A stretch of 64,000 nt of DNA from Promethearchaeota archaeon (GTDB taxonomy: Archaea; Asgardarchaeota; Lokiarchaeia; Sigyniarchaeales; SOKP01). The stretch is from the NCBI GenBank assembly GCA_019057795.1, contig JAHLWS010000034.1:1-64000 (forward strand), given 5' to 3'. Below the pieces are notes generated by a model, which did no database searches, was not told the origin of the DNA, and saw only the letters and a program-made list of their open reading frames with translations. Every line of letters starts with the position of its first letter. Positions within the stretch are counted from its first letter, which is position 1. Positions 23,561-27,526 of this stretch are shown here, in pieces. The translations under genes were made by a program, and so were the position numbers.

Positions 23561-26500
23561 TTGAAGACTATGAAAAATTTTTGGAGAAAAATTAACTATC
23601 TATTAATTACGGTTTTAATAATTAACGCGATTATTAATCCTGTTCTTGGAATTGGATCTGTAGGAAATATTAATCATAATAATATTCAAAAATTAGAGTT
23701 AGATTTCAGCGGATTAACGTATACTTCTTCAGATCAAGCAAATAATGAAAAATACGATTCAATATTACCCTTTAATAAACAAAACGCGTTATTTGACGAC
23801 TTATTGATAAAAGAATTAAATTTTATAAAATCATCTCAACAAAGTGATGCGACATTAATTAAGATTATAATCCTATTTAAAGATGGAATCTCAAAATCAG
23901 AAAGAATTAAATTAATCGATTCTGTTTTCGATGAGTATGAAATAATTAATAACTATAATTTTATTCCAGGCGTTTACATGAAATGCGATCCAAAAGAATT
24001 AATTGCCAAAAAGGGTTTATTAGAAGTTAAATCCGCTTTAAAAAAGGTTTACAAGTCAAGATTTTATAGTTCACCCTCTTTTCAAGAGCAATTTCCAGAA
24101 ACTAGTGCGTTAAGTAAAGATTCCTATCCAAATTGGTGGATACCTGCTGTGGGAGCAGATAATTTAGGTTACAACGGTAGTGGCGTAAAAGTTGCTGTGA
24201 TTGATACTGGAATATACGAACACCCTGATTTAAACTTACTATTAAGCAGAAATTTTGTTTCTGAAGAAAATTCTTCTGAATACCAAGATTATGTGGGTCA
24301 TGGAACTCACGTTGCAGGTATCATAGGGGGTGATGGTGGTAGTTCAGGCGGATTATACAGAGGTGTTGCTCCAGGTGTTTCTTTAATTAATGCAAAGGCT
24401 GGAGGCCTTTCGGGTTTAGAAGAAGGTGATATTATTAGCGCTATTGAATGGTCCGTTGACACCGCTAATGCAGATATTATTTCTATGAGTTTTGGCGATA
24501 ATTATCCAATTGCGAGTGATATTTTGATATTAGCTCTAGCCAATGCTACAGAAAACGGCGTAATGTGTGTTTCGTCAGCGGGAAATTCCGGACCAGATTA
24601 TTTTTCTGGTGGTTCACCTGCTTCTGGCATAGATGTCATTTCGGTGGGGGCTTCAAATAGAAATAACCATTTAGCATATTTTAGTAGTTGGGGACCATCA
24701 TTATCTTATTTAAGTTATCCTGATATTGTTGCTCCGGGGGTAAATATTATCTCTACCGAGGCGCCAGAATCGATTATATCCGATAGATATCGCTTTATTG
24801 GAGATTACTTCGATTTTTCGGGCGATGCAGATTACTTACCTTTAAGTGGGACAAGTATGTCTTGCCCCGTTGTTGCTGGGGCTTTAGCAATTCTGAAACA
24901 AGCTTATTCTTCAATATCTCCTGAAACTGCGAGGATTGCCATATTGGAAGGTGCTCGAGATCTTTCCGATGTAGAAGATGTTGGATTTTTGAAATCTGGT
25001 TTTGGTTTAATTAATGTATCCGCTTCGCTTGACTATTTAAATTACTTAAATGCAACTTATTCTAATATAAATGATGTATTAAAAATTGCTCCCAATGAAT
25101 TGCCAGTACAACCGTACGATTTATTGAATTTCCCTGGAGATCGCCAATTATTTAATTTAACCGTTATTTCAGGTATAGACAAAGATTACGACATCAATTA
25201 TCCTAGTATTGTTGATGGAATTTCGTTGTTTATAGACAAATCTCAATTAACTTTTAGTGACGCTGGTGTGAATTTCATAGCGTTAGACATTGAAATAGAA
25301 AGAGATGCGGCGCCAGGGATAAGGACTTTTGAATTAAATATTACATCAGGAGTTAGGTTATACGATAAAATTAATGTTTCAATAGATGTTAGATTATCCG
25401 AGTATAGAGTTTTAATGGATTCTTACCACGGTTTGAATGATTATTTCCCAGAATTTTCTTTTTATCAGATGGATTTTTACGGTTGGATGAAAGATCTTTC
25501 AGATTTAAATATCTCTATCGATTACTTAGCGGAATTGTGGACTCCAAATTACAATTCCAGTTTAAATAATTCTATATTGACCGAAGAACGATTAGCTCAA
25601 TACGACTTGGTGGTATTACAAAACCCTATCTTGCCCTATAATCCTCTAGAAATCCATAATCTGAAAAGATATTTTGATAATGGAGGTAACATCTTGTTTT
25701 TAGGAACAAGATACCAAGATTTGTGTGTTGATAATATAAACGAGCTTTTTTCAGCAATTAACTTAGGAATCCAAATTAACGAAGAGAATGTTGCCGATGA
25801 AAATTGGGTTGGACTTGGAGCAACAGTGGATACTCAAAGTATAACAGAATTTAACAATTCTCAAATATTTCAAGATGTAAACAAGTTTATTTGGGACTAT
25901 GGAAGTACTTTAACGGCTTCGGGGAATGCAGAAGCGATTGCTTCAGTAGATGGAAAAATAGTTGCTGTTGCAAACGATGGAAGATTATCCGGAAGAGGAC
26001 GATTTGTAGCGTTTGGGGATCTACATTGGTCTGCCGAGTTGTACGAATCGCAAACCTATTATCAAGACCATTATAATTTAACAAAAAATCTAATGCGCTA
26101 TTTCTTGGAAAAAGACGAAGTTTCTATAAATATTTTTCTCAATTATGAAAGGACGCCCACTTCTCAAGTAAATATTTCAATTTATGTGAAGGATCAAATT
26201 GGAGAAACGCCAGTTAGCTCAGCTACCCTAAATTCGTTTTTAAACGTATCAGTAGAAAACGATGCTTATTTTGAAACTGTAAATATGGTTTCAACGTCAG
26301 ATGGTATCGCAATTAGCAATACTTTTTCTTTACTCAACCCAAGTAATAAACCATATGTGATAAAAGTGAATCTAACAATTGGATCAAAGACTTACAATAA
26401 AACCTCCAAAATTCTTTATTACAACAGCTCAGAAGTTCCAAAGATATCTAGTTTATTGGCCACTACTGACATCAAAAGAAATGGTGTTGATACATTAGAT

Positions 26501-27526
26501 ATCAAAGCCACGCTTGACGGAAATAATTATAATGCAACGGCTTATCTATCGATATATCCTTCTACCTATTACACTGAAGAAGGAACAATCAATAAGACTT
26601 TTACTTTATCTAATTCACCATCAAGTCCAGAAAATTACTCTATTGACTACACCCCCACATCTACGGATCCACCTGGTTATGCTATTTTTTACATTCTGCC
26701 TTATAATCCTAGTTCAAATTATTACAATCCACATTCGCTTAGATTAATTTCAATTATAATAAATCACCCTCCTGAATTCATTGAAGAATCTTCTACAATA
26801 TTAATTGATAACAATCAATTAGTATCGCTTGATGAGACTCATACGGAAGATAGCTTACTAGTCATTAGTGTATCCCAAGGGAGTCAGCTTGACTTTATTA
26901 TAAATCTCACTGACTCTGTGAGTTATGAGGATCAAGATAGCTCAAAAATGAGGGTGTCAGTAAACCTTTTTATCGCCTCAATTTCAGAGGATAATACAAT
27001 TGTACCGATTAATTCAAAGAACTTTGTTCTTTCCGAATTAGAATATAAATCAGGTTCGAATACTCACTATGGAACTTTCGTAATTCCATATACTATGGAA
27101 TTCTCCTCCATTACAGGAACTAAAGAGCTTTCAACTGCATCTCAATATGATAATGATGCTCAAGATGGCTATTTAGCGATCCTATTGATCACGGCTTTTG
27201 ATAGCGAAGGAGAGTCTGAAGTTTTCTTAATGGTTTTGTTGATTCAACCTTCAACACCTTTTGAATTTATATTAGTACTAATTATTATCGGAGTTGTAGT
27301 AGTAGTTGGAATAATTGTTGTCGTCTCACTTTTAGTTAGAAAGAAGAAAAAATCTCGCATATCGACTCCTTTTGAAGGATATTACCACCAAGATTATGAA
27401 GATGTTCCTTCACAAGAAATATATGATTTTACTCAAAAGTCAGTATATTATTGTCCTTATTGTGGATTTCAATTAACTATCCCAAGAAACTTTTGCACAA
27501 ATTGCGGTAAGAAACTTTTGCCCTAA
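23561..27526 (+). CDS. Membrane-anchored S8 subtilase, site-1-protease-like architecture, with cytoplasmic zinc ribbon
   Basis: Signal peptide, prodomain, catalytic triad motifs VIDTG / HGTHVAG / GTSMSCP, a GIFT/ABC-aux-like domain (RVLMDSYHG..QYDLVVL..GGNILFLG..GRFVAFGD), beta-rich region, TM, CPYCG..CTNCG. Confidence 0.9.
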   Translation: MKTMKNFWRKINYLLITVLIINAIINPVLGIGSVGNINHNNIQKLELDFSGLTYTSSDQANNEKYDSILPFNKQNALFDDLLIKELNFIKSSQQSDATLIKIIILFKDGISKSERIKLIDSVFDEYEIINNYNFIPGVYMKCDPKELIAKKGLLEVKSALKKVYKSRFYSSPSFQEQFPETSALSKDSYPNWWIPAVGADNLGYNGSGVKVAVIDTGIYEHPDLNLLLSRNFVSEENSSEYQDYVGHGTHVAGIIGGDGGSSGGLYRGVAPGVSLINAKAGGLSGLEEGDIISAIEWSVDTANADIISMSFGDNYPIASDILILALANATENGVMCVSSAGNSGPDYFSGGSPASGIDVISVGASNRNNHLAYFSSWGPSLSYLSYPDIVAPGVNIISTEAPESIISDRYRFIGDYFDFSGDADYLPLSGTSMSCPVVAGALAILKQAYSSISPETARIAILEGARDLSDVEDVGFLKSGFGLINVSASLDYLNYLNATYSNINDVLKIAPNELPVQPYDLLNFPGDRQLFNLTVISGIDKDYDINYPSIVDGISLFIDKSQLTFSDAGVNFIALDIEIERDAAPGIRTFELNITSGVRLYDKINVSIDVRLSEYRVLMDSYHGLNDYFPEFSFYQMDFYGWMKDLSDLNISIDYLAELWTPNYNSSLNNSILTEERLAQYDLVVLQNPILPYNPLEIHNLKRYFDNGGNILFLGTRYQDLCVDNINELFSAINLGIQINEENVADENWVGLGATVDTQSITEFNNSQIFQDVNKFIWDYGSTLTASGNAEAIASVDGKIVAVANDGRLSGRGRFVAFGDLHWSAELYESQTYYQDHYNLTKNLMRYFLEKDEVSINIFLNYERTPTSQVNISIYVKDQIGETPVSSATLNSFLNVSVENDAYFETVNMVSTSDGIAISNTFSLLNPSNKPYVIKVNLTIGSKTYNKTSKILYYNSSEVPKISSLLATTDIKRNGVDTLDIKATLDGNNYNATAYLSIYPSTYYTEEGTINKTFTLSNSPSSPENYSIDYTPTSTDPPGYAIFYILPYNPSSNYYNPHSLRLISIIINHPPEFIEESSTILIDNNQLVSLDETHTEDSLLVISVSQGSQLDFIINLTDSVSYEDQDSSKMRVSVNLFIASISEDNTIVPINSKNFVLSELEYKSGSNTHYGTFVIPYTMEFSSITGTKELSTASQYDNDAQDGYLAILLITAFDSEGESEVFLMVLLIQPSTPFEFILVLIIIGVVVVVGIIVVVSLLVRKKKKSRISTPFEGYYHQDYEDVPSQEIYDFTQKSVYYCPYCGFQLTIPRNFCTNCGKKLLP

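What the first reader, a model, noticed from the sequence alone, without database searches (positions are those of the whole stretch)
23561..27526. Archaeal subtilase with site-1 protease (SKI-1/MBTPS1)-like architecture
Seen: after the S8 domain come GFGLINV, P..L...PY....G...FNLTVISG, RVLMDSYHGL, AQYDLVVLQNPILPYNPLEIHNLKRYFDNG, NINELFS and GRFVAFGD, then a TM and a cytoplasmic tail. Recalled from memory, not aligned: human S1P has the same order, with GHGKLDL, VNVTILNG, RVLWDQYHNL, SQYGTLLMVD..EEIAKLRRDVDNG, ALNELLS and GRIVLYGD before a single TM. Inference: this may be an Asgard homolog of the eukaryotic protease that primes regulated intramembrane proteolysis of SREBP/ATF6, i.e. a possible eukaryotic signature protein. 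It carries an extra beta-rich stalk and a zinc-ribbon tail.
Basis: partly seen in the sequence, partly recalled or inferred. Interest (0 to 1): 0.8.

Follow-up and report, generated by a model that had tools for sequence, protein, structure and literature searches.

The report
Asgard membrane subtilase built like S1P
This Asgard archaeal gene encodes an intact membrane-anchored subtilisin-type protease whose three-domain outer head matches the head of the eukaryotic site-1 protease (S1P) domain for domain. That hints at an archaeal root for S1P, but neither descent nor a role in membrane-to-nucleus-type signalling is shown.

Summary
Its order is signal peptide, propeptide, S8 domain (D215/H247/N342/S432), beta-sandwich, GIFT alpha/beta domain, about 350-aa stalk, one TM helix, cytosolic C4 zinc-ribbon tail.

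- One BLASTP HSP covers residues 201-718 against S1P 206-728 (E 2e-27).
- hhalign of the non-catalytic part alone gives 97.2 % probability (E 3.7e-11).
- Foldseek ranks S1P first, with or without the S8 domain.
- VIA-align superposes 574 residues across all three domains (Z 44.8).

The family occurs across Asgard lineages. I found the collinear S8 + sandwich + GIFT build only in Asgard archaea and eukaryotes.

Descent is not shown:
- The S8 domain is closer to Tk-SP and subtilisins.
- S1P sits on a long branch. An S1P + Asgard clade is neither recovered nor rejected (p-AU 0.34).
- S1P's S4 and S1 pocket residues and its prodomain are not conserved.
- Nothing links the gene to S2P.

This scan flagged the same family earlier in other genomes. 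My verdict is a new variant of a known kind and a credible candidate archaeal relative of S1P, function untested.

The parts
23561..27526 (+). Whole gene for the membrane-anchored S8 protease (P0001). The likely true start is the ATG at 23570; the stop codon is 27524-27526.
23570..23659 (+). N-terminal signal peptide (basic n-region, hydrophobic core, residues 4 to about 33)
   Evidence: Hydropathy peak at residues 11-34; N-terminus conserved in homologues. The cleavage site is inferred.
23660..24145 (+). Pro-region (residues about 34-195). Its C-terminal half aligns with the Tk-SP propeptide.
   Evidence: phmmer aligns residues 97-501 with ProN-Tk-SP 3afg residues 33-427. Pfam MBTP1_N gives no hit.
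24146..25060 (+). Peptidase S8 catalytic domain (residues 196-500) with D215, H247, oxyanion N342 and S432
   Evidence: AF2 model pLDDT 92
25073..25393 (+). Beta-sandwich domain (residues about 505-611), the counterpart of S1P's P-like subdomain
   Evidence: AF2 strands; hhalign with S1P; Foldseek and VIA-align
25394..26200 (+). GIFT alpha/beta domain (residues about 612-880), the counterpart of S1P's GIFT subdomain and the IFT52 N-terminal domain
   Evidence: Pfam PF23355; profile against PDB; hhalign; Foldseek
26201..27253 (+). Ser/Thr/Asn-rich, beta-rich stalk (residues about 881-1231). Absent from S1P; its fold was not modelled.
   Evidence: No Pfam hit; composition; weak language-model leads to archaeal Ig-like proteins
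27254..27334 (+). Single transmembrane helix (residues about 1232-1258)
   Evidence: Hydropathy; 140 of 161 near-full-length relatives have it
27335..27523 (+). Cytosolic tail. It starts with the basic stop-transfer RKKKKSR, continues with a Tyr/acid-rich linker and ends in a C4 zinc ribbon (residues 1296-1319, nt 27446-27517).
   Evidence: the zinc ribbon is present in 139 of 161 relatives

Best explanation
The gene encodes a type-I membrane-anchored pro-subtilase. It belongs to a family found across Asgard archaeal lineages. The extracytoplasmic head of that family (S8 catalytic domain, Ig-like beta-sandwich, GIFT alpha/beta domain) is homologous as one collinear unit to the head of eukaryotic site-1 protease (S1P/MBTPS1).

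The following steps are inferred from what is established for subtilases and for S1P. The protein is exported by its signal peptide. It folds with the help of its propeptide and removes it by autocleavage. It then sits on the cell surface with the protease head held away from the membrane on a stalk of about 350 residues. As in S1P, the GIFT domain packs against the S8 domain, so it probably shapes and restricts the substrate cleft. That would make the enzyme a processing or shedding protease for surface or secreted proteins rather than a bulk digestive one. The conserved cytosolic zinc ribbon gives it a handle on the cytoplasmic side for a partner that is still unknown.

Shown here: gene integrity, the catalytic residues, the domain order, homology of the head to S1P, and a wide distribution across Asgard lineages. 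Inferred: topology, autoprocessing, restricted specificity, and any link to S1P's cellular role.
For: The ORF is intact, and D/H/N/S are invariant in 23 of 23 family members aligned with S1P.

Sequence homology to S1P:
- A single BLASTP HSP covers 201-718 against S1P 206-728 (26 % identity, E 2e-27), running through S8, the sandwich and half of GIFT.
- The three-domain Asgard profile aligns S1P in one stretch (profile 9-537 = S1P 210-739). S1P was the only chain among the 60 listed that was matched past the S8 domain.
- The post-catalytic profile alone hits S1P at E 0.002.
- hhalign of that profile against vertebrate S1P residues 482-900 gives 97.2 % probability, E 3.7e-11, over 279 columns spanning both domains.

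Structure:
- AF2 models have pLDDT 92.4 and 92.5.
- Foldseek's top PDB hits are S1P 9csd/8uw8, both for the head (E 1e-39, TM 0.61, 771 columns; next best TM 0.41) and for sandwich + GIFT alone (E 9e-15, against IFT52 at 3e-10).
- VIA-align against 8uw8 gives Z 44.8 with 574 residues at 5.2 A across all three domains. Other chains align only 255-376 residues.
- The nearest language-model clusters are eukaryotic S1P (0.94, 185 of 256 features).

Distribution:
- The roughly 70 representatives that match from the start of the sandwich are 1200-1380-aa proteins. Every named one is Asgard: Loki, Thor, Hermod, Hod, Heimdall, Hel, Odin, Baldr, Ran and Borr lineages.
- 392 of 400 genomes of the phylum, and 90 of 90 high-quality ones, match the profile at E<=1e-10.
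- TM helix and zinc ribbon are kept in 140 and 139 of 161 relatives.
Against: The S8 domain on its own is closer to Tk-SP (326 bits) and subtilisin BPN' (248) than to S1P (214 bits for all three domains together).

Seen from S1P's side, its S8 domain scores a median of 72 bits against Asgard family members, but up to 123 bits against other prokaryotic S8 domains.

In ML trees S1P sits on a branch of length 1.7-2.3. It groups with S8 proteins that lack GIFT (Zixibacteria, Acidobacteria, one unnamed; 95/89), not with the Asgard clade.

Pfam's S1P-specific models do not hit this protein. MBTPS1_3rd hits 0 of 48 relatives, MBTPS1_4th hits 8 of 48, and MBTP1_N gives nothing.

S1P's S4-pocket residues T286/D312/D315/N348 read E/I/S/S here, and the S1 residue D339 reads S.

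A beta-sandwich + GIFT tandem without S8 also exists in Bacillota proteins (TM 0.67-0.69). The module could therefore have been recruited twice.

The neighbouring genes are unrelated housekeeping genes.
Confidence: 0.7

Rival explanations
1. It is an ordinary archaeal cell-surface subtilase of the Tk-SP/AprX type that feeds the cell by digesting external protein. It picked up a common beta-sandwich + GIFT accessory module independently of S1P, so the resemblance is convergent domain shuffling.
For: The S8 domain's nearest relatives are Thermococcus Tk-SP-like and Firmicutes AprX-like enzymes at 35-42 % identity. S1P's S8 domain shows no special affinity for the Asgard family. Sandwich + GIFT tandems occur in Bacillota without S8. 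GIFT/DUF4350 domains are widespread in prokaryotic surface proteins. The genome has only three S8 genes.
Against: The alignment with S1P is collinear through both domain junctions, and hhalign gives 97 % without the S8 domain. The three domains superpose on S1P as one body, 574 residues. The module is 52-94 % identical among the 120 closest relatives, which carry names from several Asgard lineages; that is unusual for a fast-evolving nutritional exoenzyme. The cytosolic zinc ribbon is conserved. No non-Asgard prokaryote with the collinear build turned up.
Confidence: 0.2
2. The family reached Asgard archaea from eukaryotes by gene transfer, or the contig is contaminated, so it says nothing about the origin of S1P.
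For: The direction of descent cannot be read from my unrooted trees.
Against: The family occurs in 392 of 400 genomes and 85 of 85 genera of the phylum. Its members are down to 20-25 % identical to one another in the sandwich + GIFT part. They form one clade with 100/100 support, and S1P does not nest inside it. The gene's G+C (0.33-0.36) matches the window, and its neighbours are archaeal housekeeping genes.
Confidence: 0.03
3. It is a true functional counterpart of S1P. On this reading it makes the first, extracytoplasmic cut in membrane-tethered regulators, which an M50/S2P protease then cleaves within the membrane.
For: The head architecture and type-I topology match S1P. The genome encodes M50 proteases. 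A Borrarchaeum short form has exactly S8 + sandwich + GIFT + TM + short basic tail.
Against: M50 is present in all 14 control genomes, so it is not diagnostic. There is no neighbourhood link. The residues that give S1P its P4-Arg and P1 preference are not conserved here. No substrate has been identified.
Confidence: 0.15

Closest known systems
Eukaryotic site-1 protease (S1P / SKI-1 / MBTPS1; PDB 8UW8, 8UWC, 9CSD)
   Same: Signal peptide, prodomain, S8 domain with D-H-N-S, a beta-sandwich (P-like) domain, a GIFT domain, a single C-terminal TM helix and a basic stop-transfer. The alignment is collinear, and S1P is the best structural match for the whole head and for the non-catalytic module.
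   Different: Only 21-25 % identical. The S8 domain does not branch with S1P. The archaeal protein has an extra stalk of about 350 aa and a cytosolic zinc ribbon. It lacks the MBTP1_N prodomain family and the conserved S4/S1 pocket residues. No SPRING-like partner was found, but that search had no positive control. The GIFT domain lacks S1P's long insertions.
Tk-SP of Thermococcus kodakarensis (PDB 3AFG, 9UES) and AprX-type subtilisins
   Same: These are the closest catalytic domains: 35 % identity, Z 46, rmsd 1.8 A over 303 residues. The propeptide is similar, and a beta-rich domain follows S8.
   Different: They have no GIFT domain, TM anchor or zinc-ribbon tail, and they are secreted soluble enzymes.
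IFT52 N-terminal GIFT domain (PDB 5FMS, 5FMR) and prokaryotic GIFT/DUF4350/GldG-type domains
   Same: The GIFT domain of the Asgard family matches IFT52 more strongly in sequence than it matches S1P (profile E 2.5e-17 against 0.002).
   Different: The match covers only one domain. IFT52 has no protease or sandwich domain and is cytoplasmic.

Membership tests
Peptidase S8 (subtilases) | Asp-His-Ser triad with an oxyanion Asn in subtilisin order, and a match to the S8 fold | tested here: met
   PF00082 at E 6e-51. D215/H247/N342/S432 are invariant in the family. Z 41-46 to subtilisins.
Site-1 protease (S1P/MBTPS1) | A P-like beta-sandwich directly after S8, homologous to S1P residues 479-616 | tested here: met
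   The hhalign and BLASTP alignments run through it. Foldseek and VIA-align cover it.
Site-1 protease (S1P/MBTPS1) | A GIFT subdomain after the P-like domain, packed on the S8 domain | tested here: met
   PF23355; hhalign reaches the GRIVLYGD strand; 574 residues superpose across three domains. The packing is a prediction, not an experimental structure.
Site-1 protease (S1P/MBTPS1) | Matches to Pfam's S1P-specific models MBTPS1_3rd (PF23094), MBTPS1_4th (PF23090) and MBTP1_N (PF23001) | tested here: not met
   This protein gives no hit at E<=1. Among 48 relatives, PF23094 hits 0 and PF23090 hits 8. A Heimdall member reaches 30.8 bits against a cut-off of 27.
Site-1 protease (S1P/MBTPS1) | Type-I topology with a single C-terminal TM helix and a short basic cytosolic tail | tested here: inconclusive
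   The TM helix and RKKKKSR are present. The tail, however, carries an extra conserved zinc ribbon, and a stalk of about 350 aa precedes the TM helix. The Borrarchaeum short form does fit.
Site-1 protease (S1P/MBTPS1) | An acidic S4 pocket (T286, D312, D315, N348) and S1 residue D339 that give R-x-x-(L/K) specificity (PMC12067269) | tested here: not met
   The equivalent positions read E, I, S, S and S in this protein. In the family they are acidic in 15 of 23 and 13 of 23 members at the first two positions. Loop alignment is uncertain.
Site-1 protease (S1P/MBTPS1) | The S8 domain forms a clade with S1P to the exclusion of other subtilases | tested here: inconclusive
   The clade is not recovered, but the AU test does not reject it (p 0.338). 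In the three-domain tree S1P falls beside the family with SH-aLRT 94. Only vertebrate S1P was available.
Site-1 protease (S1P/MBTPS1) | Works upstream of an S2P/M50 protease on membrane-tethered regulators, with SPRING as cofactor | not testable with these tools
   M50 genes are present but universal. SPRING was not found, but the search had no positive control. There is no neighbourhood link.

The most novel reading that the evidence does not exclude
This Asgard-wide family is the archaeal ancestor of eukaryotic S1P, and so an unrecognised eukaryotic signature protein. On this reading a membrane-tethered processing protease with an S8 + P-like + GIFT head already worked at the surface of the archaeal host before eukaryogenesis. 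It was later internalised to the ER/Golgi, losing the stalk and zinc ribbon. The Borrarchaeum short form already shows that stripped-down build.
Probability: 0.35. Interest if true: 0.8.

Novelty: new variant of a known kind. Interest (0 to 1): 0.65.

Why it matters
S1P is the gatekeeper of SREBP, ATF6 and related signalling pathways, and it has no described prokaryotic counterpart. Full-text searches for Asgard together with site-1 protease or MBTPS1 found no relevant paper.

A near-universal Asgard protein with the same three-domain head gives a concrete candidate for S1P's origin. It is also a tractable prokaryotic model for how a GIFT domain tunes a subtilase.

The family adds a surface and secretory-pathway enzyme to the list of eukaryote-like Asgard proteins. 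Its conserved cytosolic zinc ribbon suggests an outside-to-inside connection that can be tested.

Tried and rejected
- Single-sequence phmmer of residues 495-900 against the PDB found only IFT52 (E 0.008) and not S1P.
- phmmer of residues 500-905 against 1.84 billion representatives gave 115 hits, none a eukaryotic S1P. The link needs profiles or structure.
- Pfam's S1P-specific models do not hit this protein.
- The gene neighbourhood is uninformative: MFS transporter, racemase and hydrolase on one side; Rpe, RpiA, PurE and thiolases on the other.
- The M50/S2P search is positive but not diagnostic, because all 14 control genomes have it.
- The SPRING (PF10218) search found nothing, but nothing rang in any control genome either.
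- The Asgard sandwich + GIFT profile found nothing in five non-Asgard genomes whose S8 domains are the most S1P-like.
- S8-only trees and a three-domain tree did not resolve the position of S1P. The Zixibacteria and Acidobacteria proteins that group with S1P carry S8 at the C-terminus of 633-649-aa proteins with no GIFT domain. That grouping may be long-branch attraction.
- I could fetch only vertebrate S1P sequences, so the S1P branch could not be broken.
Language-model leads to Ig-like domains score below 0.9.
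Full report
What is there. window:23561-27526 (+) is a single uninterrupted frame of 1321 codons counted from a TTG. Close homologues all start MKNFWRK..., so the real start is most likely the ATG at 23570. The G+C content of the gene (0.33-0.36) matches the rest of the window. Pfam finds Peptidase_S8 at residues 206-468 (E 6e-51) and IFT52_GIFT at 662-745 (29.6 bits against a cut-off of 27.2). It also finds a zinc ribbon at 1296-1319, below its cut-off. 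The catalytic residues are D215, H247, N342 and S432, and they are invariant in the family. Hydropathy shows an N-terminal signal-type segment and one strong helix at about 1232-1258, followed by RKKKKSR. The only cysteines in the tail are at 1298, 1301, 1312 and 1315.

Anatomy from structure prediction. AlphaFold2 with a 48-sequence alignment gave confident models of residues 190-905 (pLDDT 92.4, pTM 0.89) and 500-905 (pLDDT 92.5, pTM 0.90). The subtilisin fold is followed by an all-beta sandwich (about 505-611). Next comes a Rossmann-like alpha/beta domain (about 612-880) that starts at the RVLMDSYHGL strand. Residues about 881-1231 are Ser/Thr/Asn/Ile-rich with no Pfam hit. Only weak language-model leads point to archaeal Ig-like repeat proteins, so I call this region a stalk without knowing its fold.

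Comparison with S1P. The S1P cryo-EM paper describes signal peptide, prodomains A and B, and S8 (D218, H249, N338, S414). These are followed by a P-like beta-sandwich (479-616), a GIFT subdomain (617-998), a TM helix and a short tail (PMC11231238). That is the same order as here.
- BLASTP against a mammalian S1P gives one HSP, 201-718 against 206-728 (26 % identity, E 2e-27).
- A profile of the family's three-domain head aligns PDB S1P in one stretch (profile 9-537 = S1P 210-739). S1P was the only chain among the 60 listed that was matched beyond S8.
- The post-catalytic profile alone reaches S1P at E 0.002.
- Profile-profile comparison of that region with vertebrate S1P 482-900 gives 97.2 % probability, E 3.7e-11, over 279 columns. 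It runs from the first sandwich strands to the GRIVLYGD strand.
- Foldseek ranks S1P (9csd_A, 8uw8_A) first for the head (E 1e-39, TM 0.61, 771 columns; the next hit, Vpr, has TM 0.41). It also ranks S1P first for sandwich + GIFT alone (E 9e-15, 433 columns), ahead of IFT52 (3e-10, GIFT only).
- VIA-align superposes 574 residues of 8uw8 (190-872) at 5.2 A, Z 44.8. All other chains align only 255-376 residues.
- A language-model feature search puts eukaryotic S1P clusters nearest (0.94, 185 of 256 shared features).
The head is homologous to S1P's head as a unit.

Distribution. A search with the sandwich + GIFT part found 226 relatives. The best 120 are 734-1342 aa long, most of them 1190-1340 aa, and 52-94 % identical. 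The named ones come from Loki-, Hermod-, Hod-, Heimdall- and Thorarchaeota. An exhaustive phmmer search of 1.84 billion representatives gave only 115 hits. About 70 of them are 1200-1380 aa long and match from the start of the sandwich. The remaining hits start inside GIFT and are unrelated multidomain GIFT/DUF4350 proteins. Distant members (20-25 % identity) are named Hel-, Odin-, Baldr- and Ranarchaeia. Across 400 genomes of the phylum, 392 match the profile at E<=1e-10, including 90 of 90 high-quality genomes and 85 of 85 genera. Some of the weaker matches may be GIFT-only proteins. Candidatus Borrarchaeum carries a short form of 807-818 aa. Its build is S8 + sandwich + GIFT + TM + short basic tail, which is exactly the S1P layout. 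The TM helix and zinc ribbon are present in 140 and 139 of 161 near-full-length relatives. I scanned prokaryotic species genomes using an S1P-led alignment. Among the 600 sampled S8 stretches, only a Heimdallarchaeota locus matched S1P beyond the S8 domain. Five non-Asgard genomes whose S8 domains are the most S1P-like have no sandwich + GIFT match.

What is not shown. The S8 domain by itself is closer to Tk-SP (326 bits) and to subtilisin BPN' (248 bits) than to S1P (214 bits for all three domains). S1P's S8 domain scores a median of 72 bits (maximum 112) against the Asgard family, and up to 123 bits against other prokaryotic S8 domains. In ML trees (LG+C20+F+G4) the Asgard family is one clade (100/100). 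S1P sits on a branch of length 1.7-2.3 and groups with three S8 proteins that lack GIFT (95/89). Two of those three carry S8 at the C-terminus of 633-649-aa proteins. The AU test does not reject S1P + Asgard as one clade (delta lnL 9.5, p 0.338). A three-domain tree places S1P beside the main family, together with the Borrarchaeum form and two long-branch S8 proteins (SH-aLRT 94 for the inclusive group). S1P is not nested within the family. Only vertebrate S1P sequences could be fetched, so the long branch could not be broken.

Further differences from S1P. Pfam's S1P-specific models do not hit this protein. Among 48 relatives MBTPS1_3rd hits none and MBTPS1_4th hits eight, and one Heimdall member passes the cut-off. 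The residues that form S1P's acidic S4 pocket and its S1 site (PMC12067269) read E/I/S/S and S here. They are only partly acidic across the family. A sandwich + GIFT tandem also occurs in Bacillota proteins without S8.

Function. Nothing in the neighbourhood helps: it holds an MFS transporter, a racemase, a hydrolase, Rpe, RpiA, PurE and thiolases. M50 proteases are present but universal. A SPRING search found nothing, but it had no positive control. The genome has only three S8 genes. My reading, by inference, is a surface-tethered pro-protease that is autoactivated. As in S1P, its cleft would be shaped by the GIFT domain, which favours limited processing or shedding of surface proteins over bulk digestion. 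The strong conservation of the module and of the cytosolic zinc ribbon fits a conserved cellular role. A nutritional role remains possible.

Novelty. Full-text searches for Asgard together with site-1 protease or MBTPS1, and for Asgard archaea with subtilisin and eukaryotic signature proteins, found no relevant paper. This scan had already flagged the same family in other genomes. One earlier follow-up reached the same verdict: same build, inconclusive trees, no S2P link. I tested each of those points independently here.

Noticed in passing
L093:1194-3617 (+); also L094:404-2827 (+) and P0205: Candidatus Borrarchaeum genomes carry an 807-818-aa short form: S8 + sandwich + GIFT + TM + short basic tail, with no stalk and no zinc ribbon. 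This is the most S1P-like layout found. It falls near S1P in the three-domain tree, on a long branch.
   Followed up: partly
window:25394-26200 (GIFT domain); alignment A1: The family's GIFT domain matches the ciliary IFT52 N-terminal domain much more strongly in sequence (profile E 2.5e-17) than it matches S1P's GIFT domain (0.002). Many prokaryotic GIFT proteins also hit the IFT52 model.
   Followed up: partly
L092 (G407:C315, 1314-aa frame): A Heimdallarchaeota member of the family passes Pfam's curated cut-off for MBTPS1_4th (30.8 bits against 27). The window's own protein does not.
   Followed up: partly
L089:84-1985 (+) and L090:1681-3630 (-): Zixibacteria and Acidobacteria S8 proteins of 633-649 aa carry the catalytic domain at the C-terminus and group with S1P's S8 domain (95/89). 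This may be long-branch attraction or a real bacterial affinity of S1P's catalytic domain.
   Followed up: partly
G000:C8:37952-39145 (L007/L008) and P0213: The genome's other large S8 gene is a 1599-aa frame. A 1583-aa S8 protein from the representative search has a GIFT-like stretch about 700 residues downstream of S8, which is a different, non-collinear S8...GIFT layout.
   Followed up: no
window:27544-32282: Downstream on the minus strand lies a pentose-phosphate and purine group (Rpe, RpiA, PurE). It is followed on the plus strand by two adjacent thiolase paralogues of 497 and 427 aa.
   Followed up: no
window:18735-21017 (-): A 760-aa ORF has an MFS_1 domain only in its first 330 residues. 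The C-terminal 430 residues have no Pfam match at E<=0.001.
   Followed up: no
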